Below, piece by piece: positions 205 through 56,547 of a stretch of DNA of 64,000 nt (its first letter is position 1; each line of letters starts with the position of its first letter). The stretch covers positions 32,001 to 96,000 of the IMG/VR virus record IMGVR_UViG_3300037067_004608; one strand, written 5' to 3'. Under the pieces are notes generated by a model. The model was not told the DNA's origin, did not search any database, and saw nothing but the letters and a program-made list of their open reading frames with translations. The translations under genes were made by a program, and so were the position numbers. The stretch is from a virus (Duplodnaviria > Caudoviricetes).

Positions 205-240
205 TAACCTAAATCCATCCGTATTAGAGACTACCTAGAA

Positions 241-284
241 CCCGCCTAGCGATTGAAAGGGGCTGCATTCGCGTGAATTCACGC
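241..284 (-). repeat. Dispersed palindromic element, copy 1
   Basis: Minus strand reads GCGTGAATTCACGCGAATGCA-N13-GCTAGGCGGG. Confidence 0.9.
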
Positions 285-290
285 TCTATT

Positions 291-542
291 TTAAGCCCTT
301 CCCTCGATCTTTAGCCGAGTTCTACGACCGGGGCCGCCAGGTCGCATAGCACTTCCTATTGAGTCAAATCTCCTGGCTCCAGCCCTTCTCTTCATCTCTT
401 CGCAGTCTCGACATAGACCTTCCCTAGCAGCCTGACCAGTGCACTTTCCTGCATGCTGACCATAGCCAATACACTCATTAGGAAGGAAATCCTGCGACAT
501 TCTGTGCATAAAATCATCTCTTGCCATAGTAACACCTCTCAT
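291..542 (-). CDS. Hypothetical Cys-containing protein
   Basis: Overlaps the terS stop by 4 bp; contains a CxxC motif. Confidence 0.5.
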   Translation of the reverse strand: MRGVTMARDDFMHRMSQDFLPNECIGYGQHAGKCTGQAAREGLCRDCEEMKRRAGARRFDSIGSAMRPGGPGRRTRLKIEGRA

Positions 543-5102: not shown

Positions 5103-5181
5103 GTGAATTCACGCGATTGTATAGCAGGCCGAATAATCCCCCGATTCCAAACGGTCAAGCGATTGAATAGCGTGAATTCAG
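5103..5181. repeat. Two degenerate, facing copies (2 and 3) of the palindromic element
   Basis: GTGAATTCACGCGATTGTA (+, 5103) and TGAATTCACGCTATTCAA (-, ending about 5163); GAATTC cores 69 bp apart. Confidence 0.7.
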
Positions 5182-10020: not shown

Positions 10021-10027
10021 TTACTAC

Positions 10028-10495
10028 CTAGATATGTGACCAGGTTTTCCGTCGGAGAAGATCAGAAACTGTTGTTTGCCCTACTCCATAATAGAGAGCC
10101 AATTCACTCTGAGTGAACCTCTGAGTAGCATATAGGTCTCTGATCATAAGAACATCGGACTCAGTCAACAGAGAATCAGGGTGCAACTCGCCTCTTACTT
10201 GACTTCCATTAACACCCCTATCAGCCATATTCTCTGTGTGGTCTCCAACTCTCAGATGATCAGGATTAACACAGATAGGATTGTCACCACCAGGACAACG
10301 ATGTAGGATATATAGACCAGTTGGAATAGTCCCTTTGTAGTGCTCATAAGACAGGCGATTAGCTCGGCAGTTCTTTCCATCATACCAAAACTGAGGGTAT
10401 CCAGAACCGCTTATTCCTGCTACCCAAATCCAGCAACCTGTCTCCTCATCCTCCTTGATCTTATCAAGGAATCTTTCCAGGGCCTTACTATCCAT
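10028..10495 (-). CDS. HNH homing endonuclease with C-terminal HTH
   Basis: CWIW.G...GY..F, HRC..DNPICVNPDHL...EN..D, then LTESDV..IR...SELA..YGV. Confidence 0.9.
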   Translation of the reverse strand: MDSKALERFLDKIKEDEETGCWIWVAGISGSGYPQFWYDGKNCRANRLSYEHYKGTIPTGLYILHRCPGGDNPICVNPDHLRVGDHTENMADRGVNGSQVRGELHPDSLLTESDVLMIRDLYATQRFTQSELALYYGVGQTTVSDLLRRKTWSHI

Positions 10496-10631
10496 AGTTC
10501 TTTATACTCCATACGTAACGATCAGCCTAGTAAATCTACTAGGTTTTTCTTGGTATTTAGCGTTTTTCAACCGATTAGTTGACTTATTTATACGGATTAG
10601 GAGGAATTATCCGACCGCTCGTATAAGAAGT

Positions 10632-11352: not shown

Positions 11353-12893
11353 CATTATCAAAGAGTGAAATTCAAATATCAATTGAACAGAGGTGACTGA
11401 GGATGGCTAAGATTCCAATTGGAAAAGACGGCGAACCTATGAAGAAGAGAATCCCACCTTCAAAGAAGGTTTGCCCGTTCTCAAAGACACATCCTACAAC
11501 TGGAAGATTATTAGGAATGTGCCATGAAGCAGTTGTTATAGGAGTCCTAAACAAACTCGCAGAAGGCGAAACAGTTATGGATCTTATGAATAGAAAATCA
11601 AGAATAACCCTTGAGCTTGAGGAAAACTGCCCTATATTCCGAGAATGTAAGCTCGCAGCTAGAGTCGAATGCCAGATACGAGTAATCAAAGGAGATGATG
11701 GATCAATCCTTGAAAAGTATCCTATTCCTATTAAAAGGATAAGGACGCAAGATTCAATGACTGAAGAGGAAACTGAGCAGGCAATTAAGGCAAGAAGAAA
11801 TCTCAAGAAGAAGAGTCCTGGATTCATAGGTAAAGCAGCAAAGAGGAATAAGCTGCGAGGAACAAAGAAGCAATCATTTATAAAAGGCCAGGACGGAGAG
11901 AAACTTCTGATCAACTAGGAGGATATAATGGGAAAACCAGTTGGTTCAGTTAATTGTGAAGCAAAAGGTTGTGATCACGATTGGAATGACCTCGACTTCT
12001 GTAATACCTGTGGCGAGATAAGAAGGGATATACAACCAGGTGAGCGGGAGATCGAAGCCAAGTGTGCCAATAAGGATTGTGCTTATTGGGGAGAAAAGTA
12101 TGGAGATTGTGTACTGCTAAACGTAGCGGACAAATGTGGAGACTACAGAAAGAAGGAAGAATAAATGGAGAAATGGAAACTTATAAATCTTGAAAAGAGG
12201 TTTGACAGAGGAGGGCCTGAAGCCTTCAGCGCCTATGAAACTGGTCTTGTATTCCCAGCAGTAGTAGGAATGAGCTTTTCTACTGTGGAGCCAAGGACAA
12301 TAATACTCTTCCCAACAAGAGAAGATTATGAGTCCAACCCTGATCCGCGACACTATATCAATGTCTGCCAATCAGATGAATTTGGTCCAGTGGCTTTGCC
12401 AATAATCAGGCCTGGTAACATAGGAAGCGAACTTGAAATAGTGTTCATTGCTGATGAGCACTTCCCTGGCGGAGAAGGTGAATGGGAAGTAAAGTTCACC
12501 GAACCTAGCTTCAAATCATGGGAGAGCGAAGATGAGGATTGATATAAGCAAACTACCTGTCCAAGCTATAATGGACATTGAGGCATTCTGTGAAAATAAC
12601 AATCGAGAGCACCCAAGAACCACTCAAGAAACTCTTGAGTTCTTCCTCAATTGGAACGGAATATACGGATACACAGAGCGTATTCTTGAGCTAGTTGAGT
12701 GCATCAATAGACAAGAAGGGAAAATTGATGTAATCGGATATATCGATGAAAGCAAGACAAGAGTAAAGCTGCGAATTGATGGTAACAATCCTGGAACAGC
12801 TGAACACAGGATAGCAAAAGCAGAAGAATCTGTGCTCAATAGTATAGTTGAATATATAGAGTTTATGAAATCTCACTAGGAGGAGATATAATC

Positions 12894-17739: not shown

Positions 17740-18648
17740 ATGCAAGTAAGAATCGAAAACAACGAAGGGAACGAACTGTACAATGCTGGCTACGATCTTG
17801 TAGCAATGGCAACTGCGGTCGGCGTAACCGTCGATAAGAATGAGAACGTAACAAGTTCTCTCGCAGTTACTGTCGAGCCAAGAGAAGGAGAATCTGTCGC
17901 TGCGGCAAAACTGATCAACTATGGTCACGTTGCCCTCGGCAAGCAGGGAGTTACCTGCGACATCGACTTCGCAGACTTCCGAAAGCAGCTCAATGAGAAG
18001 CCAGGAGAGGTAAAAGGGCCGTGGATGTTCATCTTCCCCGACACCGACTCCGCTCTGTTCTTCATCTCGGTGATCCACCACACAGACCTGCTCAAGCAGC
18101 CGAAATGGCAGAATTGGGCTGTCGAGGGTGAGGCTGCCGAAGGTGTCGAGACGCACGACGCTGATCAGTTCACTCGACACTACTTCAACAAGATCGCTCG
18201 GAACTACCTTGCCCAACTGACAGGGACAAGCCCGGACAGCGAGGCATGCAAGATTCTCGAAGGAATCCGTCAGAGAGTCGGAAAGAACCTTGATATCATC
18301 AAGGCGTCCAGAACCCGCATTTCTGACGAGACAAAGCGAGAGCGCATGCTGTCGAAGGTCAAGGAAGAGGACAAGACTGCAGTGCCAGAGGCATATGCGA
18401 AACTTGAATCTGGAGAGATCGACCTCAAGGAGTTCCGCAACGCAGTCAAGGCCAAGAAGAAGGAGACTGCTGCTCAGGAACGAGCTGCCCGAAAGGCCGC
18501 AACTGGAAAGTCCTCAAAGGGCGCATCTGCTAAGCCAATGACAGAGGCTGATGCGGCTAAGGTCGCCAATGCTCAGGCAGAGATCGCAGCCAAGAAAGCG
18601 AAGGCCCAGGGAGAAGCTGCTCCTGCTGCTCCGGCCAGCGAGGAATAG
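17740..18648 (+). CDS. Unknown, probably abundant protein with Lys/Ala-rich tail; paralog of 3737-4417
   Basis: AAGGAG RBS; C-ending codon bias (TTC, AAC, GAC, ATC); tail ...RAARKAATGKSSKGASAK...AAKKAKA. Confidence 0.85.
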   Translation: MQVRIENNEGNELYNAGYDLVAMATAVGVTVDKNENVTSSLAVTVEPREGESVAAAKLINYGHVALGKQGVTCDIDFADFRKQLNEKPGEVKGPWMFIFPDTDSALFFISVIHHTDLLKQPKWQNWAVEGEAAEGVETHDADQFTRHYFNKIARNYLAQLTGTSPDSEACKILEGIRQRVGKNLDIIKASRTRISDETKRERMLSKVKEEDKTAVPEAYAKLESGEIDLKEFRNAVKAKKKETAAQERAARKAATGKSSKGASAKPMTEADAAKVANAQAEIAAKKAKAQGEAAPAAPASEE

Positions 18649-18677
18649 GCAAGCTCTAAAGCCTATCGGTAGTTTAT

Positions 18678-18718
18678 AAAGCCCTGCAGTCGGTGAATTC
18701 ACGCGAATGCAGGGCTTT
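18678..18718 (+). repeat. Palindromic element copy 4, embedded in a hairpin/terminator
   Basis: AAAGCCCTGCA-GTCG-GTGAATTCACGCGAA-TGCAGGGCTTT. Confidence 0.85.
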
Positions 18719-19103
18719 CATACGTTCGGACTAGTAAGAATACCTCTACTTAGGAAGAAGCTAGAAACAGGATAGCAAAATGGGGAAGCGTGCAGTATTT
18801 GTTGATAAACGAGATATGCCAAAGAAACTCTACCCACATCAATTCAAGGTAAAAGGCTCATTAACACGAGCATCTGATGCTGGTATTGTTCCAATGGATG
18901 TATTTGTGGAATTAACAAAAGCTGAAATAACCCTGGCTAATGCCGAAGCTAGATATGTTTCTCTGCTTCTTGCTAGCACAAGATCGGACGTATTGAATGA
19001 AATAACTGCCCACCTCAAATACACAAAAGAAATGGAAGAAAAGTCTGGTGCTATTATCAGACAACTAACCAAGTAACGAATACTCAGAAAGGAGCATTCA
19101 GAA

Positions 19104-21202: not shown

Positions 21203-23792
21203 GTGAAGTGCCCATTTTGTAAAGGTCACGATATGGATTATGTTGAAAAACATAAATGGCACCAGTGTGACTATTGTAAGACAATAGTTATGAATGACGG
21301 AATAATATACATTATGCCAGATGATTCGCAATTATCACTACGTGAAATCATAGGTAGACTACAGAATCTAATACAAGAATGTGGCATAAGGGTGACAGAA
21401 GAAGGAATAATAGTCAATATTCCATAAGGATGATAAATGAAAAAAGATAATCCAACATGCGAAGATTGTGGGAGATTAGACTGTGAAGGTCTAACAGCAG
21501 AAGATCCATCCCCTATGTGTGTAGATTGGGTTCCAATAAATACAGAAAGAAAGGAGAAGAAATGTCAACAGGAACAGAAGATGTAGAATTTGGTCAATGG
21601 ATGAAGAAAGTAGATGATGTACTAGAGACAGAAATTGGTCTTTCTCATTCAGATCTTCCTGACATAAACTATCGAATAATGTTTGAGTGTGGAGACAGCC
21701 CTTCACAAGCAGCTAGAGAAGCACTCGATGAAGCAGGATTCTAATGGTCAAAGTCAGAGATAGAACTCAAGATAGAAAATCATACTCTGGATCAGAGGCA
21801 GATGCCAAAGACAGAGAGTGCCCGTGTAGATCGTGTTTTAGAATCCATGACTACGGAAGCACAGATTATTCTGGTAAATGGGTAACAAACTATAGATGCT
21901 GGAGAAGAGAGCAAGATGGTTGCCCAGATAATATACCAGAACCAGAACATATCTTTGTATCAGATAGAGCATATGTCTGTAAAAGATGTGGATACAGGAG
22001 AAAGAAACAATGAGAATATTTTCAAAACTTTTCCCTTTCCGTAAACAAAAGAAAAAGGAGGTGGTGAAAGAACCAGTAGAAGAAATTTGTCTAAACTGCC
22101 ACTGGTGGAGAGATAGAAATGACACATCTAAATATCCACCAATAGGAATTGGAATTGGCAGATGTTTCAAAGAGCATGGGTGCCCACTTGATGGATACAA
22201 AGCGCATTTTGCGCACTCTTGCTTTGATGACTGGAAAGAAAAGAAGGTGGCAAATGCTTAAGCCAGATGTTAAAGTATTTGAACTAAGAGATAGGATGAC
22301 TACAATATCTATCATGTGTATTAGGATAGATTTGTCAGAAGTAACAGAACCAGATAGATTTATCATCAGAAGAGCAGGTTGGGGTTCTAATGCCAAGGCT
22401 ATTTATATGATAAATCTATCGACTTGCCAATGTATATTCGAGCCTGGAAGATGGAACTCACATACATATGATACAGCACATCAATATGTAGAGGAGCACT
22501 GGGACGAATTACAAGGAGGGGAGGTGATTGATGCAGAATATATTCGTGGCGAATCAGAAAAGCCAAAAGAAAGTGAAAGACATTTAGAAGGAAAGTAATC
22601 AACTTGAAAGGACTCTCATATGAGATTACATATAGAAGAAACTGATTCGCCAATGCTAACTGATGATGCTCTAGCAAATGCTTCAAGACCTCTAAATCAA
22701 TATAATCCTCCATCTGGAGATGAAATACTGAGAACATGGGAACAGGAAGATATGCCTCTGCCATTTAGAGATGAGGACAATCTTCCATATATGTGCTTCA
22801 TCAAAGATAAGATGCACGCAATAATACACAGACCTCTTGATGGTATAGAATATCATTGTGCGGTAGTGTATCACGAAGAAAAAGGCTGTATCTATATCTG
22901 TAACTGCTATAACGACATAGATGCAAATAGAATATACATCATATTCGGAATGGCAGCCTTTTGGCATCTTATCCTTCCCGAAGAAGGAATAACCGCTAAT
23001 TAGAGCGTGAATTCACGCGAATGCAGTCGGTTTGCAGCTTCCCTCGACTTCTAACCCGTCTAATATCTAGGAGGAATAGATGAAAGACTTCAACGCCTAT
23101 TCAGTTGGTCCACTATCAGCTTCTGTGTGTAGTTCTCTTGGACCAGAAGAGACTGTTAAAAGAATGAATGAAGAACATCCAACTGGAATAGATTCACCTT
23201 GGTCAATCTCCAAAGAAACACACTTCAGAACTGGCCAGCCAAATCCTTGCTTCTGTGAAGAGAGTCCTACAACTCACATGCACTATTTGCTTATAACATT
23301 GCCAGATCTCGAAGACACTCTAACACAGATAGCAAAGACAATAGAGGAAAAGTTATGAGAGAACACAAAGATATTGAAATGACTCCAGAACTACATTTGA
23401 AATCTCTCAAACTCATAAGAGAGATAATTGCAAATAGTTCCAAGATAATGTATTATGATGATACTACTCCTGGAAATAAGCACACAGAATGTAGCTGGGG
23501 ACTTTGTACAGATGCAAAAGAAGCATGGCCAGATAGTGAAATGCATCTGTGGCCAGATCAGTTTGAAGAAAAAGGAAGAGTTGCTCCAAAATATCACAAG
23601 AAAGATCAAGTGTGTCCTCTTGATACTAGATCAATAGAAGCAGATCATTCAAACGGATGTTTCTATACATGCCAAGCTTTCAAAAGAAAGAAAAGAAAGC
23701 AGCCTCTGACTAAAGAATATGTTCTTCAACTCTTTGATACAGAGATACAGAGATACGAAGGACTATTAGCAAATGACAAAGTCATACGATAA
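21203..23792 (+). other. Cluster of small hypothetical genes (21203-21427, 21562-21744, 21744-22013, about 22010-22261, 22254-22598, 22620-23003, 23080-23358, 23355-23792)
   Basis: Coupled plus-strand ORFs, several Cys/His-rich. Confidence 0.65.
23005..23025 (+). repeat. Palindromic element copy 5
   Basis: GCGTGAATTCACGCGAATGCA; the satellite box appears inverted further downstream (CCCGTCTAA, about 23055). Confidence 0.9.
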
Positions 23793-27148: not shown

Positions 27149-28941
27149 TTAGGTTTGATCTAGCAGCAACTGGAGTTGGATCACTAGAGGTAAAAGGAAG
27201 ACACTTCTATCGTGTCCAAAGAGAACTTGGCTGTAAGATAACCTATTATGGAGCATTCTTTGGAGAGAAAAGCCAGAAGTGGTTCTTCTCATTTCATAAC
27301 TACAGAAGAATAAGAGACTATGTATCTGGACTCGACGATCAGGAAAAAGTTATGAGTCAAGAGTTCAGCACAGTAATAATTCCTTATCTACAAAATCAAG
27401 ATGTAATCAGAAGAATAAAAGACGGAGAGCCAACTCCAGAAATAATGTGCCAGAATCTTAACTATGAGTTAAGACCCTATCAAGTGATTGGATCAGCATT
27501 TCTCCGATTAGTTGAGAGAGCCTTACTTGCTGATGATATGGGATTAGGCAAAACTCCTCAGACAATATCAGCAGCACTTTCTTTGGTAGAATCAAACTCA
27601 ATACAAAGAGTTCTTATTGTTTGTCCTTCATCTCTAAAATGGCAATGGGAATCAGAAATAAGAAAGTTTGCACCAGAGCCATATAGCAATGAGTCTGTTG
27701 TAATAGAAGGACAAGCTGTATCACGACGACAATTGTATGGAAGCAAATTATTCTCTATTGCCAATTATGAGCTTATAAGAAATGACCTAGAGAGATTATT
27801 GGAAATTGACTGGGACTTGATAGTTCTTGATGAGGCACAGAGAATAAAGTCACGAGGAAGATATAAGACAGATACAAAGACAGGAACAAGAGTTGCTACA
27901 GGATGTAAGACTACAGCTGCAATAAAAGAACTTAGTTCAAGATATAGATGGGCAATAACAGGAACTCCTATTGAGAATAGCATAATTGATATGTTCTCTA
28001 TTCTTGAGTTCTTAGACCCGATGATATTTGGTTCTATTGCAGCATTCAAAAAGAGATATATGAAACAGACTCCATGGGGTTCCCAAACTGGAACCTCACA
28101 GAGTGAAGAACTGAAGCGGAAACTTGCGCCCATAGTTCTAAGACGTGAAAAGGCACTTGTCCTTCCATGGCTTCCACCATGTACAGAAAATGAAGAACCT
28201 TGCGAACTTGTTGGAGATCAAAGGCGTCTATATCAGGAATTTGAAGATGAGACACTAGAAGCTCTAAATGCTATATCAAATAAGCAAGGGAAAGAAAGAC
28301 AGCAGGCTCAGTTTGAAATAGTAGCAAAGATGGTTTATCTCAGAGAGATTTGTGATTCACCAGAGCTAATAGATCCAAACATAAAAGAATCAGGAAAACT
28401 ATCTTCACTACTTGCAATACTAGAAGATTTGCCAATAGGCAAAGTATTGATATTCTCTCAATTTGAGAGAATGACAGCAATTATTGAAAGAGAGATTGAA
28501 GCAAGATTTGGAATGGCTCTACAGCCATTTAGAATACATGGTGGAGTAGATTCACACACAAGAAATAACATAAAAGACATATTCAATCTAATTGATAGAC
28601 CTGTTGCTCTAGTAACTACAGACTGTTCAAAATATGGAGTTAATATGCAGGCAGCAAGGTGGGTATTTAATTATGATCTCCCTTATAATCCTGCTATAAT
28701 CTCACAGAGAATAGGCCGTGCACACAGAGATGGTATGGATGAAGTAGAAAGGCTTGGTGATGATAACAATGTAACAGTAATAAACCTAACTGTAGCAAAC
28801 ACAATTGAAGATAGAGTCAAAAAGATAATTAACACAAAAAGACTAATCTTCAATGATATAATGACTGACAACCAGATACTTCACAAGTTCTCTCTTGATG
28901 AACTAAGATACATTCTAACGGGGCGCGAAGTCGCCGCGTAA
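27145..28941 (+). CDS. SNF2-family helicase/ATPase
   Basis: LRPYQ, LADDMGLGKT, LIVCPSSL, VLDEAQRIK, ITGTPIEN, KVLIFSQF, QRIGRAHR. Confidence 0.95.
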   Translation: MIRFDLAATGVGSLEVKGRHFYRVQRELGCKITYYGAFFGEKSQKWFFSFHNYRRIRDYVSGLDDQEKVMSQEFSTVIIPYLQNQDVIRRIKDGEPTPEIMCQNLNYELRPYQVIGSAFLRLVERALLADDMGLGKTPQTISAALSLVESNSIQRVLIVCPSSLKWQWESEIRKFAPEPYSNESVVIEGQAVSRRQLYGSKLFSIANYELIRNDLERLLEIDWDLIVLDEAQRIKSRGRYKTDTKTGTRVATGCKTTAAIKELSSRYRWAITGTPIENSIIDMFSILEFLDPMIFGSIAAFKKRYMKQTPWGSQTGTSQSEELKRKLAPIVLRREKALVLPWLPPCTENEEPCELVGDQRRLYQEFEDETLEALNAISNKQGKERQQAQFEIVAKMVYLREICDSPELIDPNIKESGKLSSLLAILEDLPIGKVLIFSQFERMTAIIEREIEARFGMALQPFRIHGGVDSHTRNNIKDIFNLIDRPVALVTTDCSKYGVNMQAARWVFNYDLPYNPAIISQRIGRAHRDGMDEVERLGDDNNVTVINLTVANTIEDRVKKIINTKRLIFNDIMTDNQILHKFSLDELRYILTGREVAA

Positions 28942-28973
28942 GACGGAATCGAGGGTTTGCGACCTACTTTTAA

Positions 28974-29017
28974 GCGTGAATTCACGCGAATGCACCGCCT
29001 CTCGGATACTAGACGGG
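28974..29017 (+). repeat. Palindromic element copy 6
   Basis: GCGTGAATTCACGCGAATGCA-N13-ACTAGACGGG. Confidence 0.9.
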
Positions 29018-29758
29018 TTTTAATACTCGTTTCCTAAGTAAAGAGGGTGCAATGACATAATAACAGGAGAAGATAATGGTAGTGGACAGTAAACAATATG
29101 CCGTTGGTTTAACTAGGATATATTTCTATTGTTTCGAGTGTGGACCAGATATAGATGATCCTAGTGCACCAGGCAAGAAAAAGAAAGACACTCCTGGCCA
29201 GAGAGTTATGAAAGCTGAATGGAGAAAAGATTCCAGAGTATATTGTCCACGCTGTAAAAGACTTATGATCTTTGATGGTGATGCATTATATGACAATGTA
29301 ACAGGAAATGCTCATTTTTGGATAGAGAGACCAGATGGACTCATAGTCCCAAGAGGTCACCTATTCAGATACGACCTAAAAGGTGAAGGATATGTTTCAC
29401 CAAGATACATTTCACCAAAACCAGGAGATGGTGTAAACATAGACTTTGTAAAAGAATATGATAGGCTGAATGGAGGAAACAGTGCAGTGCAACAGATGCC
29501 CTAATACTTTCCCAAAAGATGCAGTCCACGATCTTCATCTTGATATAGAAGAAGGAGTCATGATACATGTTTCCTTCCCTATAAATCAAGTTGATGGAGA
29601 AGTAATTTCTCTGTGTAAAGATTGTCTACAGTCAACTTTCCAAGAGTTCATGGACAATCTTAATCCAGCACAAAAGCAATTCATGAGAGACCAAGCAAGA
29701 AAACAAGCGATTGATGTATCAATATTATCGCTTGTAGCAGATATGGAAGAATAAAAGG

Positions 29759-36273: not shown

Positions 36274-36926
36274 GTGGAGCACTCATTTGAGGATTTTAAC
36301 ATAATAACTCCTGATCCTCATCTCTTGCTCCATAGTAATATACCAAAGCCATTACACGAGGTAAATCCAAGAACTATTAAAGGAAGGAATTGGTGGGACG
36401 AGCAGAGAAGGAGAATATATAGCGAGCAGGGTGACCGTTGTGCAGCTTGTGGAGTTCATAAGAGTCAAGCCAAAGGCAAGAAGAAATGGCTTGAGTGCCA
36501 TGAAATCTATGAGATAGATTGGAAACGTGGAACAGCAAAGTTCATAAAGTTAATTGCTCTGTGTCCATATTGTCATATGTTTATTCACAATGGCAGAATG
36601 CAGGCACTTTATGATCAAGGAGAAATAAGCACTAGACAAACTTTGCTGTTATCAAACATGGAACAGAACTTCTCGATAAAGCTGGTATTAGAAGTCAGTG
36701 GGAGCATAGGCATGATGCTTGTAATTATTCTCCAAATTGGAATAAATGGAGACTAATATTTGAAGGAAAGAAATATAAACCAAAGTTCAAATCATATGAT
36801 GAATGGCTTAAACACTTTGGATATAAAATAGATATGACACCAAAGGCAAGTCCATTCTTCAATAATGCAAGAATATCTGATGTTCTTGATGAATATGATA
36901 CATACGAAGAACTTTTTGGAAACTAG
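36274..36926 (+). pseudogene. HNH endonuclease broken by a frameshift near 36636-36642
   Basis: RCAACG...LECHE...LCPYCH...H in frame 0; the -1 frame continues about 95 codons (FAVIKHG...WNKWRLIFEGKKYKPKFKSYDEW...) to TAG at 36926. Confidence 0.7.
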
Positions 36927-37402: not shown

Positions 37403-38455
37403 ATGGCAAGAATAAAGGTTAAAGATCAGCATATTGATATTGATCTTATGCAGTTGATGACTGATTATGGCATCAAAGGCAAGAAGATCGGTAATGAGTA
37501 TGTTGCTTTTTGCCCTTTCCATGATGATAATTCTCCAAGTTGGTCTCTAAAGCTCGAAGGAGATAGAGCTGGTCTATGGCATTGTATGTCCTCTAGTTGT
37601 GAGTTAAAAGGAAATATAATAACACTCATAACTATGATGGAAAATTGCGGTTATAAAGAAGCAATTGCATCACTAACTGCTATAGAATCAGAAATAAATG
37701 TATACCAAAAAGATTTAGATTCACTAGTTAATAGACTGCTATCAATAGGAATAGACACTAGGCAGTCTAGCCTCAGATACAAAGTTCCACCAGACTGTAG
37801 TAAATCATACGTTCAAACCTTCTTCACAAATCCAAAAGAAAAAGGAGGTAGAGGATATTCAAAAGAAGAGTTTGAACAATTGATTGTTGATGATGTAGTA
37901 TATTGTGAATCAGGTTTCTTCAGGAATAAGATCATAGTTCCAATCTACAATGAATCGGGCGAGCAAATCTCGTTTGTAGCAAGAACTCTTGATCCAAATG
38001 TCATGGAGAAATACAGATACCCAAAGGGCTGGATGAAGAATCTCTTTGTTTACAGAATGGAAGCTAATCCATCTGAGCCTCCGGTTATATGTGAAGGAAT
38101 ATTTGATGGCAAGCATATACAAGGTATCTGGAATAGAACTGCATTAGTAGTCTTTGGCAGTTCTCTTACTACAGCGCAAATAGCGTGGATAGCAAAAAGA
38201 TACGACAAAGTAACATTTAGCCTTGACGGAGATAAGGCAGGAAGGAAGGGAACCTATCACGGTATAAAAAGCATGCAACAATTTGGAACTGATATCACTG
38301 TTATGGAGCTACCCGATGGCTTCGACCCTCCTGGAGTTTCAAGGACGGAAATGACTAATCTAGTATTGATGGCAGCAAAGGACTATGGAGAGAAATGGGA
38401 GAGAAGTCATATGTTGAGCAGATTCTCGATGACTGGCATCCGAGGATCAAAATGA
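37403..38455 (+). CDS. dnaG: DNA primase (CHC2 zinc finger + TOPRIM)
   Basis: CPFHDDNSPS, WHC...C, ICEGIFDG, SLDGDKAG, DP. Confidence 0.9.
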   Translation: MARIKVKDQHIDIDLMQLMTDYGIKGKKIGNEYVAFCPFHDDNSPSWSLKLEGDRAGLWHCMSSSCELKGNIITLITMMENCGYKEAIASLTAIESEINVYQKDLDSLVNRLLSIGIDTRQSSLRYKVPPDCSKSYVQTFFTNPKEKGGRGYSKEEFEQLIVDDVVYCESGFFRNKIIVPIYNESGEQISFVARTLDPNVMEKYRYPKGWMKNLFVYRMEANPSEPPVICEGIFDGKHIQGIWNRTALVVFGSSLTTAQIAWIAKRYDKVTFSLDGDKAGRKGTYHGIKSMQQFGTDITVMELPDGFDPPGVSRTEMTNLVLMAAKDYGEKWERSHMLSRFSMTGIRGSK

Positions 38456-38949
38456 TGATTGCCCGCTGCGGCTTTGGCGCAGAGGACAAAGAATTGTTAG
38501 AGAATGAGCTACTTGAGAAAGTAGTAACGTGTATCGAAGAATACGACACATCATACGATGCAAAGTTCGATACATTCACCAATAGATGTTTAATGAATCA
38601 TATTCAGGTTCATCTAAGAGGTGAGAAAAGAAAGAAGCACTCATTTATATCGAACTCAATGTCCTTGGATTACACAATTGATGAGGGAGATACAATCTCA
38701 GAACTTATCGCTGATCCAAAGGCAATATCTGCAGATACCATTATTTTCAACATAACTTTGAGTGAAATAATGAATCTGCTTCCTGATGTTTGCAAAGAGA
38801 TAGTAAGCCTTCTTTGCGCAGGTTTGAGTGAGTCAGAAATAGCAAGAATTATTGGAGAAGAATCTCGACTAGTAAGAGGATATATCGAGGAATGTATACA
38901 GCCTTTAGTGGTAGAACTACTTCTTTGTGAGGAAAGAAATGACGGATAA
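38395..38949 (+). CDS. Sigma-70 family RNA polymerase sigma factor (compact, regions 2 and 4)
   Basis: YD.SYDAKFDTF..RC..N, SLD, LP...EIV.L...GLSESEIARIIG. Confidence 0.8.
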   Translation: MGEKSYVEQILDDWHPRIKMMIARCGFGAEDKELLENELLEKVVTCIEEYDTSYDAKFDTFTNRCLMNHIQVHLRGEKRKKHSFISNSMSLDYTIDEGDTISELIADPKAISADTIIFNITLSEIMNLLPDVCKEIVSLLCAGLSESEIARIIGEESRLVRGYIEECIQPLVVELLLCEERNDG

Positions 38950-41826: not shown

Positions 41827-42175
41827 GGGGCCGAAATGGTTTCGACAGAGGGCAGACGAAGCATACTGCGAGCCGAGATGACTGTAGGACTCGTGAATCA
41901 GTCAAACAATAAAAGCGAATACAGACACACTCTCTTCCATCGCTGGCAGAAATGCCGACATGGAAGTAATGGCTGCCTAGCGTAGCCTGTCTCTCATTCT
42001 GACTCCGATATGATGAGAGGCTCAAATTATCGGACTGGCAAGCTGAACCACAATATGACGATAGTGGGAGGGGTCACCTCCAGCTCTAATCGTGGAAGAA
42101 AAGATGGTGACTACGCTCGTAGACGTTTGTTAGAAAACCTTTTGGACAGGGGTTCGATTCCCCTCGGCTCCACCA
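41827..42175 (+). ncRNA. ssrA: tmRNA
   Basis: 5' GGGGCCGAAATGGTTTCGAC; 3' CAGGGGTTCGATTCCCCTCGGCTCCACCA with G3:U Ala determinant and encoded CCA; tag frame 41915-41980 ANTDTLSSIAGRNADMEVMAA*. Confidence 0.97.
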
Positions 42176-42516: not shown

Positions 42517-43497
42517 GTGATTATTAGTCAAACTCCTCTAAGAATCAGTTTTGCTGGAGGTGGAACTGATTTCAAGAGATACTATACAATTGGTGGCGGT
42601 AAAGTTGTATCTACTGCTATTGATAAGTTTGTCAAAGTTATTATACAAGAACGCTTTGATGATCTTATTGTTGTATCATACTCTAAGACAGAAGTAGTAC
42701 ACTCTGTAGAAGATATAAAGCATGATCTTGTAAGAGAAGCTCTTTTGATGACAGGAATCAAAAAGGGAATCGAAATCAAGACAATGTCTGATGTGTCTTC
42801 TGAAGGTTCTGGTCTTGGATCATCAAGTGCAATAACAGTTGGTCTACTAAATGCCTTCTTCACCTATCAGAACAAGAATGTCTCTTCAGATGATCTAGCA
42901 AGATTAGCTTGTATCATTGAGATAGACTATCTTGAAAACCCAATTGGGAAGCAAGATCAATATATAGCTGCTCATGGTGGAATAGCTGCAATTGATTTTG
43001 CTAGAAGTGGAGAAGTTTCTGTAGAGCAGATTCCTCTATCTGAATCAGACAGGTCTCTTCTTTCTGAGAACCTAATGCTGTTTTATACAGGTATGACCAG
43101 AAAGTCATCAGAGGTTCTATCTGACCAGTCGGCAAAGATAGTTGATAATATAGATGTGCTAAATCAGATGAAAGATCAAGCACAACTTCTTCACAGTAGT
43201 CTCAACAATGGAAATATAAATGCTGTTGGAGAGGCTTTACGAGACGGATGGGAACTCAAGAAGAAATTATCTGATAAAATATCAGTGAATATACTAGAAA
43301 GTCTAATTGGCGAAGCTATGAATGGCGGAGCTACAGGCGCTAAAATAGCAGGCGCTGGAGGTGGAGGTTTTCTACTTTTATATGTTCCACCAGAGAACAG
43401 AAGATCAGTTAGGGAAGCTCTAAAAGAATTGAAAGAACTTCCAATAACAATTGGTCAAGATGGAAGCAAGATAATTTTCAACTCTAGGAGAAGATGA
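42517..43497 (+). CDS. hddA: GHMP kinase, D-glycero-alpha-D-manno-heptose-7-phosphate kinase-like
   Basis: PLRISFAGGGTD, GSGLGSSSA, GKQDQY..A.GG, GAKIAGAGGGGF. Confidence 0.85.
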   Translation: MIISQTPLRISFAGGGTDFKRYYTIGGGKVVSTAIDKFVKVIIQERFDDLIVVSYSKTEVVHSVEDIKHDLVREALLMTGIKKGIEIKTMSDVSSEGSGLGSSSAITVGLLNAFFTYQNKNVSSDDLARLACIIEIDYLENPIGKQDQYIAAHGGIAAIDFARSGEVSVEQIPLSESDRSLLSENLMLFYTGMTRKSSEVLSDQSAKIVDNIDVLNQMKDQAQLLHSSLNNGNINAVGEALRDGWELKKKLSDKISVNILESLIGEAMNGGATGAKIAGAGGGGFLLLYVPPENRRSVREALKELKELPITIGQDGSKIIFNSRRR

Positions 43498-43750
43498 TGA
43501 CAAAAGTAAAACTTACTTACTTCAAAGAAAGTGGTAAGTATTATAGTGATGGAGAATATGAAACTGACCTCCAGGAATGGCATGATGTTATAAAGGACAT
43601 CAAGATAAAGCAAGAAGAAGGAAATCTACCAGGACTTGTTGAAGGTGGCGGTCAGGAGTTTATGATTCTGGTAAATACAGAGGGAATCGGGACTGCAGAT
43701 GTTCCTCATATTATACACCCTATTCCTCCCGAAAACCGGAGATACTAAAC

Positions 43751-43792
43751 CCCGTCTAACGATTGGAAGGCCCTGCAATCGCGTGAATTCAC
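43751..43792 (-). repeat. Palindromic element copy 7 (opposite to local transcription)
   Basis: Minus strand reads GTGAATTCACGCGATTGCA-N13-GTTAGACGGG. Confidence 0.9.
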
Positions 43793-43842
43793 TCGCCTTT
43801 TCCGCCCCGAAACGACCGAAACGACCGAAGGAGGAAAGGAAT

Positions 43843-44427
43843 GTGAAACTATCTATAATAGTAGTGCTATCACTAGTATTAGCATCAGATTGCTATGGGG
43901 AGAAGTTCAGAGTAACAAACTATGATGGCCCAACAACAAAAACTGCTAGTGGGCACAGAGCCAGATATGGAATCTGTGCAGCAGATTGGAAGCATCATCC
44001 TCCAGGGACAATAATCAAGTTAGATACTGGAGAAAGACTTGTAGTAGCAGATGTAGGCCCTGCAGTAAAAGGAAGACATCATATAGATAGATTCAACCCT
44101 TCTCACAAAATATTCCCAACAGTATCAAGGGGATATGTAGTGAGTAGAGGTGGACCTCACAGGAATAGAAAAGAGATTTATCAGTCTGTTCTTAAAGGTC
44201 TTGAGAAGAAAAAGCAATTAGACAAAGAGGCAAAGAAGAGATATTATGAACAGCTCAGAGAAAAAAGTTGTGATTCTCGGAGGGGGAATAGCAGGATTAC
44301 TAGCTGCCCTAGAAATGAGCGAAAGGATAAACCCAAGCCAAATAACAGTATTAGCAGCAAAGATAATGCTAGAAAAGCAGGGTCTACATTATCTACACGA
44401 AACACAAGAAACAAAAAGCCTAATTGA
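43843..44427 (+). CDS. Secreted 3D-domain protein (lytic transglycosylase-like)
   Basis: GTG start after GGAGGAAAGG; signal peptide; VTNY, TASG, AADW...PPGT, DVG.AVKG.HID. Confidence 0.8.
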   Translation: MKLSIIVVLSLVLASDCYGEKFRVTNYDGPTTKTASGHRARYGICAADWKHHPPGTIIKLDTGERLVVADVGPAVKGRHHIDRFNPSHKIFPTVSRGYVVSRGGPHRNRKEIYQSVLKGLEKKKQLDKEAKKRYYEQLREKSCDSRRGNSRITSCPRNERKDKPKPNNSISSKDNARKAGSTLSTRNTRNKKPN

Positions 44428-45295: not shown

Positions 45296-45298
45296 GAA

Positions 45299-53753: not shown

Positions 53754-54521
53754 TTGGATACTGATACTCCTAAAGTTCACCTAATTTCTGCAACTCCTAA
53801 TCCCCGATCAATTCTTTCATTTTGTTGGTCGATAATCAATGAACCAGGATTCCCAATAAATACTGATATCATTGATATGACAGAACTTGGAGAAGCAATA
53901 ACATTTATTGACCCTGTTTCTGGTGCTGCTGGAGAGAATATAGAGACCATAGTTAGAGAGTTTCTCAAATCTGGTCTTGGCGGTCCACTAGAGATGATCA
54001 ACTTTGTCTTTGGCTTTGAGGGAGTAACAAGAGCTTTTACTCACCAAATGGTAAGAACAAGACTTGCAAGTTATATGCAGCAAAGCCAGAGATTCACAGA
54101 CTTCGACGGAAATCTACCTGTTAAAATGCCTGATTCCATCAAGAGTGATAACTGTGACGACAGTAGAGCTGAAGTTCTCTGGGAATCTGCTATAGGTAAA
54201 ATAGAGTTTGTTTGCAAGGAGCTAAAGGCTCTTGGAATACCAACACAAGATATTCGTGGATTATATCCTACAAATATAAAAACGAATATCATACAATGTA
54301 TTGATTACAACGCTCTGAGACGGATGATGTCTCATAGACTTTGTACACAAGCCCAGCAAGGTGAGTGGGCACCTGTAGCAGCACAGATAAAGCAAATAGT
54401 TACAAATTATGATCCTATTCTTGGGGAAGGTCTTGTAGCTGCGTGTCAGCTAACTGGCAAATGCGCATTTGATACTGTGCTAGATAGGGAATGCCCAAAT
54501 AGAGAAGCCCTCAAAAAGTAA
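53754..54521 (+). CDS. thyX: FAD-dependent thymidylate synthase-like
   Basis: F.FEGVTRAFTHQMVRTRLASYMQQSQRF, QDIR..YP, RLC.QAQ..W. Confidence 0.85.
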   Translation: MDTDTPKVHLISATPNPRSILSFCWSIINEPGFPINTDIIDMTELGEAITFIDPVSGAAGENIETIVREFLKSGLGGPLEMINFVFGFEGVTRAFTHQMVRTRLASYMQQSQRFTDFDGNLPVKMPDSIKSDNCDDSRAEVLWESAIGKIEFVCKELKALGIPTQDIRGLYPTNIKTNIIQCIDYNALRRMMSHRLCTQAQQGEWAPVAAQIKQIVTNYDPILGEGLVAACQLTGKCAFDTVLDRECPNREALKK

Positions 54522-54600: not shown

Positions 54601-56406
54601 ATGAAGTTTGCAAACAGACTCGTTCTTGTGTTAGCACTAATTTTGTGCTGCACAGTGGCATTCTCTGCCACTTACTATGTGAAATGGGATTCTCCCATTA
54701 ATGGTCCTGGTAATGATCTTGACCATGCATACCATACTATTGCTGCTGCAATAACTGCTTCAAGCAACGGGGATACAATATATGTATATGGTCCTCACTC
54801 ATATGCAGAATCCCTAGACTTGAATAAGCAACTGACGGTTACAGGAGTAAATGGGCCGACTATAGATGCTTCTTCCACTGGTTACGGAATTATAATCAGT
54901 GCGGCATCTAACTTACAATACTTCACTGTTCTTGGAGGACATTTTAATGCAATAAGCATAAAGAATGCTGCAACAGGAACAATGGTAAAAGGCTGTACAG
55001 TAAATGTATACCAGTATGGTAAAGGTATCTATATTGGATATGACAGTGCATCAGCATCAGCATCTGCTAGAATTGACAATAACATAATCTCCGGTGGTTC
55101 CTGGAAATCAGAGGGAATATTTGGCTGTATAATTTCTTGGGGAGGTAACTCGATTATAACAAGTAACCTCATCAAGAATGGTGCTCTTGGAATATTCTTA
55201 TATGGAAGTGGATCACCGTCTATTTACAATAACACAATTGTTGGATGCAACAATGTAGCAACTGGTTCAAATCCTCCTGCAACAAAAGGTGGAGGAATAT
55301 ACATAACTCACTATAGTTGGCCACTTATTGAAAATAACATAATTGCCAACAATAACGCTGATTATGGTGGAGCCTATTACATAGACCTAACAGGTGGTGG
55401 CTCTGTTCAGGATATGGGGTGGAACACATTCTATGGAAATACTTCAAATATTTCTGGATATGTTTACTACCCAACACAAGCCAATTTTGGAACAATTGGT
55501 GTAGATGGAAATAACGAAGATAATCCAGTATTTGTTGGAAGTTCTGATTACAGACTACAATATAACTCAACATGTATAGGAACTGGAAACAATAACTATG
55601 CTGGCGGAGAATGCTGCTGGAAAGATATAACAGGACTTCCTCGTGTATTGCCAGCAGCGGGAACTGTTGACAGAGGATGTTATGAAGGTGCATCTGTACT
55701 AACAAATACAAGAACTGTGGGCGACTGGGTAGAGCTAAGATCAAAACCTGTAACTGGTAACTTTACAGATATGTTCTATGTTGAAGAGCCAAGTAGAGTT
55801 AATGGAGTAAAGATACTATCTACAAGTTCTGCAGTTGCTGGAGATTTAGCAACAATAGATGGACAGTATGTTACAAATGAAAATGAGTTATCTATTCAGC
55901 CAACAAGTGTTTCTATAACTTCTGGAAGCTCTTCAAATATACCAGGGACTCTTGGAATGCCAAACCGATCTCTTGGAGGAATAAACATAGGACTCCTTGT
56001 TAGAGTTTGGGGAAAGATAACTTCAGCAGCAGCTGGCGTATACCTAATAGATGATGGTTCTGGTATAAACAGCACTGTTCTCTGGTATGGAACTCCCTAC
56101 AACGTTAATGACTACATAGCTGTAACAGGGGTAAGTTGTTATGGTTGTGTAAGAGCAACTTCTGTTGACTATATAACAACAATAGAAGGTCAGCAGATGA
56201 TGTCTATGGGAATGTCCTCAAGTTCTCTATCTATTGATAAGAGTTCATCTAAATATGAATCCATTCTCAGATGGCAGCAGTTCTTACAGGACAACTTAGA
56301 TGAGCTTGCAAAGCACGAGAAATTAACCGCTTCACAGATAAGCTGGAAGAATCTTATTGAGATACTTATGAAGCAGGCCCAAGAGCAACTATCCAGCTAT
56401 AAGTAA
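54601..56406 (+). CDS. Secreted right-handed beta-helix protein with C-terminal OB-like repeats
   Basis: Signal peptide, TYYV, TI.AAI...GDTI.V, I.NNTI/I.NNII rungs, VDRGCYE, NIGLLVRVWGKIT...IDDGSG. Confidence 0.85.
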   Translation: MKFANRLVLVLALILCCTVAFSATYYVKWDSPINGPGNDLDHAYHTIAAAITASSNGDTIYVYGPHSYAESLDLNKQLTVTGVNGPTIDASSTGYGIIISAASNLQYFTVLGGHFNAISIKNAATGTMVKGCTVNVYQYGKGIYIGYDSASASASARIDNNIISGGSWKSEGIFGCIISWGGNSIITSNLIKNGALGIFLYGSGSPSIYNNTIVGCNNVATGSNPPATKGGGIYITHYSWPLIENNIIANNNADYGGAYYIDLTGGGSVQDMGWNTFYGNTSNISGYVYYPTQANFGTIGVDGNNEDNPVFVGSSDYRLQYNSTCIGTGNNNYAGGECCWKDITGLPRVLPAAGTVDRGCYEGASVLTNTRTVGDWVELRSKPVTGNFTDMFYVEEPSRVNGVKILSTSSAVAGDLATIDGQYVTNENELSIQPTSVSITSGSSSNIPGTLGMPNRSLGGINIGLLVRVWGKITSAAAGVYLIDDGSGINSTVLWYGTPYNVNDYIAVTGVSCYGCVRATSVDYITTIEGQQMMSMGMSSSSLSIDKSSSKYESILRWQQFLQDNLDELAKHEKLTASQISWKNLIEILMKQAQEQLSSYK

Positions 56407-56447
56407 AGCGTATATACGATAGCGGAGGAGTTCCGATAGCGTTTTAA

Positions 56448-56491
56448 GCGTGAATTCACGCGAATGCAATCGGTTCACGCGGTTAGACGGG
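56448..56491 (+). repeat. Palindromic element copy 8
   Basis: GCGTGAATTCACGCGAATGCA-N13-GTTAGACGGG. Confidence 0.9.
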
Positions 56492-56547
56492 TAAAAGAGT
56501 CGATACCGCTTTATTCCGAATATATACAGGGAGGAGGTGATAACAGA

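What the first reader, a model, noticed from the sequence alone, without database searches (positions are those of the whole stretch)
28915..29047. The single-copy palindrome loci sit in ~50 bp flanks nearly free of CA/TG steps and rich in CG, even inside coding sequence
Seen by hand count: flanks 285-338, 22966-23004, 28995-29047, 43793-43840 and 56395-56447 contain no CA or TG; the opposite flanks contain 1-2. Ordinary coding DNA here has about 13 per 120 bp (27181-27300). The flanks share no sequence, only this dinucleotide rule. It overrides codon habit: the SNF2 gene ends ACG GGG CGC GAA GTC GCC GCG, unlike its usual AGA/GCA/ACA. The paired copies near 5.1 kb show the effect only weakly. 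Inference: the functional unit is ~120 bp. Either CA/TG hinge steps are excluded for DNA mechanics (wrapping or stiffness), or CA/TG is the context of a phage base modification and these windows must stay unmodified, or bound protein protects CG from modification-driven decay to TG.
Basis: partly seen in the sequence, partly recalled or inferred. Interest (0 to 1): 0.85.

Follow-up and report, generated by a model that had tools for sequence, protein, structure and literature searches.

The report
CA/TG-free windows around phage control sites
An uncultured 113-124 kb phage keeps about 120 bp around each copy of a dispersed control element almost free of the DNA steps CA and TG, while the rest of its genome looks as if CA/TG steps protect it from restriction enzymes; this suggests, but does not show, that the phage chemically marks T in TG and leaves its control DNA bare.

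Summary
All five stated CA/TG-free stretches are exact. Across 34-35 distinct copies in this phage, a 113-kb relative and fragments, CA/TG falls to about a tenth of expectation at +28..+70 from the core and to about half at -55..-3. The flanks are otherwise unrelated in sequence (27-33% identity). They evolve faster than neighbouring genes yet keep the rule (P about 3e-4).

- CpG and TpA richness is a passive by-product, because pyrimidine-purine step density is unchanged.
- The unit is an oriented intergenic cassette: helically phased A/T patches, a 21-bp core, an AGACGGG box, an A/T block, then a gene start at +72..+153.
- The SNF2 "codon override" is an unconserved tail reading into the cassette.

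Best explanation (about 0.42): these are control sites kept free of a TG-specific DNA modification. Published phages hypermodify T in TG. Here, 6-bp palindromes lacking CA/TG are purged while those containing it are not. Surviving sites are preferentially abutted by TG/CA. Genes almost never go 38 nt without CA/TG. A ThyX variant resembles that of the TG-modified phage F8.

No modification has been shown, and F8 itself lacks these genome signatures. The scan earlier found CA/TG-free blocks in other phages.

The parts
28922..28973 (+). Upstream flank of the copy in the finding (-55..-4). It is CA/TG-poor and CG-rich, and overlaps the last codons of the SNF2 ORF (stop at 28939-28941).
   Evidence: CA/TG-free run at window 28912-28958. 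The SNF2 tail REVAA is not conserved in orthologs. Phased W-rich patches with a period of about 10 bp across copies.
28974..28994 (+). Oriented 21-bp core GCGTGAATTCACGCGAATGCA: a 14-bp palindrome plus a one-sided GAWTGCA extension. It holds four invariant CA/TG steps. T(T/G)CA blocks recur at a 10-bp period (positions 5-8, 15-18, about 24-27).
   Evidence: Invariant in 12 strong copies of this genome and 12 of G001.
28995..29047 (+). Downstream CA/TG-free zone. It holds box 2 TAGACGGG (29010-29017) and the A/T block TTTTAAT (29018-29024).
   Evidence: sequence. Run 28994-29048. Positional consensus and W/S profile.
29064..29078 (+). Shine-Dalgarno sequence (CAGGAG) and ATG (29076) of the downstream gene 29076-29504. 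This is where normal CA/TG density resumes.
   Evidence: SD plus start at +99.
211..336 (-). Copy at TGAATTCA 274 (reverse orientation), taken as -55..+70.
18639..18764 (+). Copy at 18694 (forward). Here the core is extended to a 28-bp palindrome with TGCA on both sides.
22953..23078 (+). Copy at 23008 (forward). The gene start is at +72.
43721..43846 (-). Copy at 43784. It is in reverse orientation inside a plus-strand gene region. Box 2 overlaps the stop codon of ORF 43494-43748.
   Evidence: The G001 copy at 17696R, also reversed against its gene context, may be its ortholog, but orthology was not tested.
56396..56521 (+). Copy at 56451 (forward). It lies upstream of a very acidic small ORF (56464-56718).
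5104..5180 (.). Paired degenerate copies (TGAATTCA at 5104 and 5173) with ordinary CA/TG density in their flanks.
38395..38949 (+). Candidate phage sigma factor (184 aa). It is a possible reader of a phage-specific promoter class.
   Evidence: phrog_351 and phrog_1740 'RNA polymerase sigma factor', E 4e-8 and 5e-8. Weak Pfam Sigma70_r2 and r4_2 hits in the right order.
53754..54521 (+). Divergent ThyX-like protein with RTR where the canonical ThyX motif has RHR. It is a candidate first enzyme of a thymidine modification pathway.
   Evidence: Pfam Thy1, 2.5e-28. 28% identity, E 3e-26, to F8 gp059, which has the same RTR. No PDB match by phmmer. Phage relatives are mostly Pbunavirus.

Best explanation
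Each locus is an oriented intergenic control cassette of about 120 bp. The parts, in order:
- About 55 bp of helically phased A/T patches.
- A 21-bp protein-binding core, GCGTGAATTCACGCGAWTGCA.
- An AGACGGG box and an A/T-rich -10-like block.
- The 5' leader of the next gene.

The cassette most likely acts as an operator/promoter, possibly for the phage-encoded sigma factor.

The CA/TG ban is a selected property of this control DNA. The most likely reason is that this phage clade carries a bulky modification on T in the TG context, as shown chemically for other phages. Control DNA that must be read by RNA polymerase and regulators is kept free of modifiable TG on both strands. The exception is the four invariant CA/TG steps inside the core.

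CpG and TpA richness follows passively, because pyrimidine-purine steps that cannot be CA/TG must be CG or TA.

Shown: the anatomy, the rule, its maintenance under divergence, and the genome-wide link between CA/TG and exemption from palindrome purging.
Inferred: promoter function, the existence and chemistry of the modification, and that the modification is what the windows avoid.
For: The rule and its maintenance:
- The position-specific depletion is anchored on the core, not on gene starts.
- CA and TG are equally depleted (8 versus 11 in +28..+70), so the effect is at the DNA level.
- All TG contexts are depleted, including CTG (6 versus 42), so this is not start-codon avoidance.
- The flanks are unrelated in sequence.
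- In two diverged copies the island is 59% identical against 83% in adjacent genes, yet holds only 2-3 CA/TG. Random substitutions give about 11 (P about 3e-4).
- YR-step density is unchanged, at about 20 versus 23 per 100 nt.

Cassette function:
- 10 of 12 copies here and 8 of 11 in G001 (9 if 83035F, which has an SD plus start at +96, is counted) are co-oriented with a downstream SD plus start at +72..+153.
- The upstream flank has a 10-bp W periodicity: P<0.001 pooled, 0.001 in this genome and 0.0065 in G001.
- There is an A/T block at +41..+47.
- A sigma factor candidate is present.
- A second island class without the core looks like TTGnnn-N16-17-(CG)TATAG promoters.

Modification:
- Published TG-specific thymidine hypermodification exists in Pbunavirus F8 and 14-1 (PMC12191111) and in Acinetobacter phage SH-Ab 15599 (PMC13458397). 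A TG/TC preference is reported for M6, ViI and PhiW-14 (PMC6449724).
- 6-bp palindromes without CA/TG have median Markov o/e 0.49 here and 0.41 in G001. Those with CA/TG have 0.94 and 0.79 (p 1e-4 and 5e-4). Non-palindromic hexamers sit at 1.00. An unrelated pool gives 0.77 versus 0.81.
- Surviving CA/TG-less palindromes are preferentially abutted by TG/CA: GTAC 64/66, AGATCT 22/23, non-core GAATTC 15/16, and 4-mers overall p 3e-14. This is replicated in G001 and absent from controls.
- Coding DNA has only 3 CA/TG-free runs of >=38 nt against 53 expected geometrically. The ratio is 0.06, against 0.47 for the control pool, and codon-shuffled genes give 16.
- 34 of 40 such runs lie in the roughly 8% of the genome that is non-coding.
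- The ThyX variant is shared with F8.
Against: - No modified base has been observed. There are only metagenomic contigs, no RNA runs and no raw-signal data.
- The positive control fails. Phage F8, whose TG modification is published, shows only a weak palindrome partition (0.95 versus 0.77, p 0.1), no flank rescue and no intergenic CA/TG-free windows.
- No 5hmdU DNA kinase or aGPT-Pplase was recognised by PHROGs among 20 ORFs.
- The FAD protein and the HAD fusion have no tblastn link to Pbunavirus.
- ThyX-like proteins can be plain thymidylate synthases.
- The core-less promoter-like islands keep a TTG at -35, which would be modified.
- The islands contain unprotected 4-bp palindromes (CTAG, TCGA).
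- Two copies per genome point against the local genes, so a simple promoter role does not fit all copies.
- No canonical -35/-10 pair fits the core.
- The two genomes are related, so replication between them is not independent.
Confidence: 0.42

Rival explanations
1. Promoter insulation without any DNA modification. The cassette is a promoter that must fire only with a phage factor (activator or phage sigma). TG on either strand is purged because TTG (-35) and TGn (extended -10) next to the many TA-rich hexamers would create host sigma-A promoters in sense or antisense.
For: - The zone +28..+70 would span the spacer, -10, start site and early transcribed DNA if the A/T block at +41..+47 is the -10 element.
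- TA is enriched 1.5-fold, so -10-like hexamers are dense.
- TG is depleted in every context, as expected for extended -10 avoidance.
- A sigma factor candidate is present.
- Most copies are oriented with their genes.
Against: - It does not explain the genome-wide palindrome partition, flank rescue or even CA/TG spacing in genes.
- The core-less promoter-like islands, which look sigma-A type, obey the same rule in their spacer and leader.
- About 400 nt of the non-coding tract at window 10590-10985 is also TG-free.
- Complete removal over 40 bp on both strands is more than insulation needs.
Confidence: 0.2
2. DNA mechanics. The flanks are wrapped or bent around a protein complex nucleated at the core, and CA/TG steps are excluded because their bistable geometry would spoil the path.
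For: - Significant 10-bp phasing of A/T-rich patches in the upstream flank, anchored on the core, in both genomes.
- T(T/G)CA blocks at a 10-bp period in and after the core.
Against: - The strongest exclusion (+28..+70) shows no periodicity (P 0.56).
- TA, the most deformable step, and CG are both enriched 1.5-fold.
- The hypothesis does not account for the genome-wide palindrome signals.
Confidence: 0.1
3. Self-immunity to a tethered or single-strand-specific nuclease. A protein that docks at the core, or an enzyme that attacks transiently melted DNA, cuts at CA/TG within reach, so the phage's own sites are purged of cleavable steps. The analogy is the I-TevI operator that lacks the CNNNG cleavage motif.
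For: - The depletion is sharply bounded and anchored on the core, and is strand-symmetric.
- An HNH endonuclease gene is present at window 36274-36756.
- The I-TevI and T4 endonuclease IV (TCA) precedents come from my own knowledge and were not checked here.
Against: - Islands without the core obey the same rule.
- No nuclease is linked to the core.
- The idea does not predict palindrome purging partitioned by CA/TG.
Confidence: 0.05
4. CpG-island analogy. The bulk genome loses CG to TG/CA through methylation-driven decay, and bound protein shields the windows.
For: - Bulk CpG o/e is 0.44, with a CA/TG excess of similar size.
- CpG is depleted in all three codon phases.
Against: - CA/TG in the windows is 0.1-0.5 of random expectation. 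It is not about 1, as mere absence of decay would give.
- No C5, N4/N6 or Dam-type methyltransferase was found.
- The rule holds equally in G001, where CpG o/e is 0.64.
- The islands diverge fast but never pass through CA/TG.
Confidence: 0.03

Closest known systems
TG-specific thymidine hypermodification of phage DNA: Pbunavirus F8 and 14-1 (Yee et al. 2025, PMC12191111); alpha-dapT of Acinetobacter phage SH-Ab 15599 (NAR 2026, PMC13458397); TG/TC preference in M6, ViI and PhiW-14 (Flodman et al. 2019, PMC6449724)
   Same: - The dinucleotide TG/CA is the unit that matters.
- TG-containing restriction sites are the protected class. TG-free sites (AATT, TTAA, DraI, XbaI, EcoRI and similar) are the exposed class, matching which palindromes are purged here.
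- A divergent ThyX-like gene resembles that of F8.
   Different: - No chemistry is available for this phage.
- The known kinase and transferase genes were not recognised.
- F8 itself lacks the genome signatures seen here.
- None of the passages I read in those papers (section 8 of one, targeted term searches in the other two) mentions modification-free windows at control sites.
CA/TG-free early-gene blocks noted earlier in this scan in Wifcevirus, Myosmarvirus and a soil phage (AI notes e1-183535, e1-179886, e1-5874065; unpublished, not verified by me)
   Same: - The same dinucleotide ban.
- It is actively maintained.
- It is associated with promoter-rich DNA, in phages whose ThyX-like genes are relatives of the one here.
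   Different: - Those are single 1-2 kb blocks that include whole genes, at a genome end or terminal repeat.
- Here the ban covers about 120-bp non-coding windows dispersed every 4-15 kb and anchored on a conserved core, plus short promoter-like gaps.
Restriction-site (palindrome) avoidance in phage genomes
   Same: Strong under-representation of 4- and 6-bp palindromes relative to Markov expectation.
   Different: The purge is split by whether the site contains CA/TG, and survivors tend to abut CA/TG. This was not seen in 615 kb of unrelated viral DNA.
Vertebrate CpG islands at promoters
   Same: Short CpG-rich patches at control DNA in a CpG-poor genome, plausibly marking DNA that stays free of a modification.
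   Different: - The primary rule here is the absence of CA/TG, not retention of CG.
- No cytosine methyltransferase was found.
- The windows are only about 120 bp long.
- The likely modified base is T, not C.
Dispersed phage promoter cassettes, such as T7-type 23-bp promoters and promoter-stem-loop (PeSL) cassettes of T4-type phages (from my own knowledge, not checked here)
   Same: A long invariant oriented motif repeated at gene boundaries, mostly co-oriented with genes.
   Different: - No single-subunit RNA polymerase was found.
- The core contains a true palindrome.
- Two copies per genome are reversed.
- The flanks obey a dinucleotide rule that is unknown for those cassettes.

Membership tests
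Phage with TG-specific thymidine hypermodification | A non-canonical thymidine derivative in virion DNA, replacing T in the TG context | not testable with these tools
   Only assembled contigs are held. No RNA or raw-signal runs are available.
Phage with TG-specific thymidine hypermodification | TG-containing restriction sites are protected and TG-free sites are exposed | tested here: inconclusive
   The genomic proxy is met: the palindrome purge is partitioned by CA/TG and survivors are flank-rescued. But the proxy is weak or absent in the known member F8.
Phage with TG-specific thymidine hypermodification | 5hmdU pathway genes: a dUMP hydroxymethylase, 5hmdU DNA kinase, and transferase or lyase | tested here: inconclusive
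   Present: a divergent ThyX-like gene (RTR motif, related to F8 gp059), dUTPase, NT5C/HAD fusion, GHMP kinase and a GT4-like protein. No kinase or Pplase family was recognised among 20 ORFs.
Sigma-70-type promoter | TTGACA-like and TATAAT-like hexamers 16-18 bp apart | tested here: not met
   For the core cassettes, an A/T block lies at +41..+47 but there is no TTG-type -35 element 17 bp upstream; that region is GC-rich. The core-less islands do fit TTGnnn-N16-17-TATAG.
Single-subunit (T7-type) RNA polymerase promoter | A phage-encoded single-subunit RNA polymerase | tested here: inconclusive
   PF00940 gave no match, but the control genomes did not ring either. No DFDGD-type motif was found in any frame.
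CpG island caused by escape from 5mC decay | A cytosine-5 methyltransferase acting on CpG, with TpG/CpA near expectation inside the island | tested here: not met
   No PF00145 match. CA/TG o/e is 0.09-0.12 in the core zone.
Known structured RNA (Rfam) | A match to a covariance model, or a conserved fold | tested here: not met
   Only the tmRNA is found in the window. Folding z-scores for the cassettes average -1.1 on both strands, with no shared structure.

The most novel reading that the evidence does not exclude
The phage runs a two-state DNA code. The bulk genome is saturated with modified T at TG, roughly one CA/TG every 7 bp and almost never a gap above 38 bp, as armour against restriction. 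Every promoter or operator sits in a bare window, a phage counterpart of a CpG island. The four invariant TG/CA steps of the core are read in their modified or unmodified state by the core-binding protein, which would couple transcription of each operon to whether that DNA has just been replicated or is fully modified.
Probability: 0.12. Interest if true: 0.9.

Novelty: new variant of a known kind. Interest (0 to 1): 0.72.

Why it matters
If the windows are modification-free control DNA, this would be the first case where a phage's own regulatory architecture is visibly shaped by its DNA hypermodification.

It would also give sequence-only signatures for predicting context-specific modification in uncultured phages:
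- palindrome purge partitioned by one dinucleotide;
- flank rescue of surviving sites;
- gap-free spacing of that dinucleotide in genes;
- bare windows at promoters.

These signatures would point directly to where RNA polymerase and regulators touch DNA. That matters for phage therapy (restriction escape, sequencing bias) and for finding new modification enzymes.

Even without the modification, a 10-fold, position-anchored ban on one dinucleotide step in fast-evolving DNA is an unusually clean selective signal that still needs an explanation.

Tried and rejected
- Start-codon avoidance is rejected. CTG is as depleted as ATG, GTG and TTG.
- An RNA-level cause (nuclease or structure) is not supported. 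CA and TG are equally depleted in +28..+70, there is no shared fold, and z-scores are equal on both strands.
- Common ancestry of the flanks is rejected (identity 0.27-0.33).
- A general property of non-coding DNA is rejected. Terminator-type gaps have normal CA/TG.
- An effect of the palindrome alone is rejected by 70 control sites.
- Sigma-54 and ECF spacing were checked by eye against the core and do not fit.
- Avoidance of extra core half-sites is rejected, because all CA/TG contexts are depleted, not only TTCA, TGAA and TGCA.
- Rfam gives nothing for the cassettes or for the 10.5-11.4 kb tract.
- The promoter/terminator consensus scan was uninformative.
- The search for related loci with SNF2 gave one distant locus only.
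- tblastn of the FAD protein found nothing, and the HAD fusion matched only Gordonia and Nocardia phages.
- phmmer of the ThyX-like protein against the PDB found nothing.
- Host identity was not determined.
- Structure and complex prediction were not used.
Full report
**Setting**

The window is bases 32001-96000 of a 123,839-bp IMG/VR phage record from landfill and groundwater metagenomes. Its last 10.9 kb is an 83-87% identical copy of its first 10.9 kb. This is therefore not a true terminal repeat, and the real genome is probably about 113 kb, like its relative G001 (IMGVR_UViG_3300033889_000069, 113,031 bp).

Gene content:
- Structural genes lie on the minus strand on the left (tape measure, portal, protease).
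- Replication genes lie on the plus strand: a split DNA polymerase III alpha, DnaB, DnaG-type primase, RecA, ligase and SNF2 helicase.
- There is a tmRNA gene.
- There is a 184-aa candidate sigma factor.

Genome GC is 0.40. CpG o/e is 0.44 in all three codon phases, and CA/TG is 1.15.

**The observation**

The palindrome GCGTGAATTCACGC is part of an oriented 21-bp core, GCGTGAATTCACGCGAWTGCA. There are 12 strong copies in this genome, 6 of them in the window, and 12 in G001.

The loci rank at the top of the genome for CG minus CA+TG in 120-bp windows, in both genomes.

Aligning 34-35 distinct copies on the core gives a sharp positional profile:
- Ordinary CA+TG density (about 1.4 per 10 nt) beyond -60.
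- About half of that from -55 to -3.
- Four fixed steps in the core.
- One T(T/G)CA block at about +24..+27.
- Essentially none from +28 to +70 (CA o/e 0.09, TG 0.12).
- Ordinary density again from +70.

The unit is therefore about 120 bp and asymmetric.

**What the rule is not**

- It is not inherited sequence. Flanks of different copies are 27-33% identical, close to random.
- It is not neutral. Between the two diverged copies at the genome ends, the island is 59% identical against 83% for adjacent genes, yet holds only 2-3 CA/TG. The same number of random substitutions gives about 11 (P about 3e-4).
- It is not start-codon avoidance. CTG is as depleted as the start codons.
- It is not an RNA-level effect. 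CA and TG are equally depleted, and there is no shared fold.
- It is not a property of all non-coding DNA. Terminator-type gaps are normal.
- It is not caused by the palindrome itself. Seventy chance copies in unrelated viral contigs have normal flanks.

CpG richness is not an independent feature. Pyrimidine-purine steps are as frequent inside the windows as outside (about 20 versus 23 per 100 nt), but they are all CG or TA, each at 1.5 times expectation.

**The coding-sequence claim**

SNF2 orthologs in G001 and a fragment are 79-80% identical up to ...LRYILTG. They then carry unrelated tails of 18 residues, against 5 here. The ORF reads into the cassette until it meets a stop codon, so no codon habit is being overridden in a conserved protein segment. 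The same happens at 43784, where box 2 supplies the stop codon of ORF 43494-43748.

**Anatomy and likely role**

- The upstream flank has A/T-rich patches near -9, -20, -30, -39 and -50. This 10-bp phasing is significant pooled (P<0.001) and in each genome separately (0.001 and 0.0065). The downstream flank has none.
- After the core come GC-rich bases, a T(T/G)CA block, AGACGGG at +35, an A/T block at +41..+47 (TAGAAT, TTTAAT, TAGTAT), and often ACCTCC.
- A Shine-Dalgarno sequence and start codon follow at +72..+153. This holds in 10 of 12 copies here. In G001 the crude open-frame test of 11 co-oriented, or 9 if 83035F is counted, since it has an SD plus start at +96.
- Two copies per genome are reversed relative to the local genes.
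- A second set of CA/TG-free gaps lacks the core and looks like TTGnnn-N16-17-(CG)TATAG(A) promoters.
- About 400 nt of a conserved 800-nt non-coding tract (window 10560-11400, 74% identical to G001) is also nearly TG-free.

I read the cassette as an operator/promoter plus leader, possibly served by the phage sigma factor. This is inference. There are no RNA data, and no canonical -35 element fits.

**Why CA/TG**

Earlier notes of this scan pointed to published work, which I read:
- Pbunavirus F8 and 14-1 carry hypermodified thymidine in a TG motif (PMC12191111).
- Alpha-dapT of Acinetobacter phage SH-Ab 15599 sits almost fully on TG. It blocks TG-containing sites, while AATT and TTAA sites are cut (PMC13458397).
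- M6, ViI and PhiW-14 show a TG/TC preference, and the M6 5hmdU DNA kinase modifies TG (PMC6449724).

I then tested what such a modification would predict for genome sequence.

1. Six-base palindromes lacking CA/TG are heavily purged. Median Markov o/e is 0.49 here and 0.41 in G001. Examples are TTTAAA 0 of 81 expected, TCTAGA 0 of 36 and AAATTT 7 of 81. Those containing CA/TG are not purged (0.94 and 0.79; CTGCAG 41 versus 16 expected), with p 1e-4 and 5e-4. Non-palindromic hexamers sit at 1.00. An unrelated 615-kb viral pool shows no split, at 0.81 versus 0.77.
2. Surviving CA/TG-less palindromes are preferentially abutted by a TG or CA step: GTAC 64 of 66, AGATCT 22 of 23, non-core GAATTC 15 of 16, and 4-mers overall 71% versus 55% (p 3e-14). 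This is replicated in G001 and absent from the control pool.
3. Genes almost never run 38 nt without CA/TG. There are 3 such runs against 53 expected geometrically, a ratio of 0.06. The control pool gives 0.47, and the same genes with codon order shuffled give 16. Meanwhile 34 of the 40 such runs in the genome lie in the roughly 8% that is non-coding.
4. The ThyX-like protein has RTR where ThyX has RHR. It shares this with F8 gp059 (28% identity, E 3e-26). It has no PDB match by phmmer, and its phage relatives are mainly Pbunavirus, E. coli phages of about 68 kb and Serratia phages.

Together these results suggest that CA/TG steps protect this clade's DNA from palindrome-reading enzymes, and that the control windows are the places left bare.

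**Caveats**

- Nothing chemical has been shown.
- F8, the known TG-modified phage, shows only a weak palindrome split (p 0.1), no flank rescue and no bare intergenic windows. The signatures are therefore not a validated test.
- The canonical kinase and transferase genes were not recognised.
- No DNA methyltransferases were found.
- The core-less promoter-like islands keep a TTG.
- The islands contain unprotected 4-bp palindromes.
- The two genomes are related, so agreement between them is not independent.

**Verdict**

The mechanical idea holds only for upstream bending. The CpG-protection idea fails.

The finding is a new variant of known kinds (context-specific phage DNA modification, restriction-site avoidance). 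Its distinctive feature, which I did not find in the passages of the three papers I read, is short modification-free windows anchored on a dispersed control element. The scan has noted related CA/TG-free blocks in other phages before.

Noticed in passing
window 41827-42175 (+): Phage-encoded tmRNA (Rfam RF00023, 141.8 bits; ARAGORN tag ANTDTLSSIAGRNADMEVMAA). It is preceded by an ORF-free stretch of about 340 nt that starts at a CGTATAGATAG promoter-like motif (41502).
   Followed up: partly
window 10560-11400; G001:60873-61534: An ORF-free tract of about 800 nt at the divergence point of leftward and rightward genes. It is conserved at 72-83% identity in the relative, in a block pattern. The first 400 nt or so have 1 TG and 9 CA, all as YCAG. 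No Rfam match. It could be a large non-coding RNA or an origin.
   Followed up: partly
G000 1-10945 versus 112937-123839: The two ends of the record are only 83-87% identical. This is not a true terminal repeat and is probably two strains joined in assembly. The real genome is about 113 kb, like G001.
   Followed up: partly
whole genome and G001: There is an extreme purge of 4- and 6-bp palindromes that lack CA/TG. Examples are TTTAAA 0 of 81 expected, and GTAC o/e 0.16 here and 0.02 in G001. CA/TG-containing palindromes are at expectation.
   Followed up: yes
window 38395-38949 (+): A 184-aa candidate sigma factor directly after the primase gene (PHROG sigma families at E 4e-8 and 5e-8; weak Pfam region 2 and region 4 hits).
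   Followed up: partly
window 9734(-), 10589(-), 10620(+), 33402(+), 39849(+), 41502(+); genome 30471(-): A second class of CA/TG-free intergenic gaps without the core. They are built as TTGnnn-N16-17-(CG)TATAG(A)TAAG and look like host-type promoters.
   Followed up: partly
window 47064-48287 and 49027-52131 (+): The DNA polymerase III alpha is split into a separate PHP-domain protein and a 1034-aa polymerase core. Small ORFs lie between them.
   Followed up: no
window 56464-56718 (+): A very acidic small protein (runs of E, T and D) lies immediately downstream of the cassette at 56451. It might be a DNA mimic or a scaffold.
   Followed up: no
window 42517-46264, 52339-54521, 57026-59195: A scattered nucleotide and sugar enzyme set: GHMP kinase, FAD-binding protein, NT5C/HAD fusion, methyltransferase-like protein, ThyX-like protein, dUTPase and a GT4-like glycosyltransferase. 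It could make a modified base, but no member is assigned.
   Followed up: partly
window 18655-18735: At the copy at 18694 the core is symmetric, with TGCA on both sides. It forms a 40-nt inverted repeat right after gene 17740-18648.
   Followed up: no
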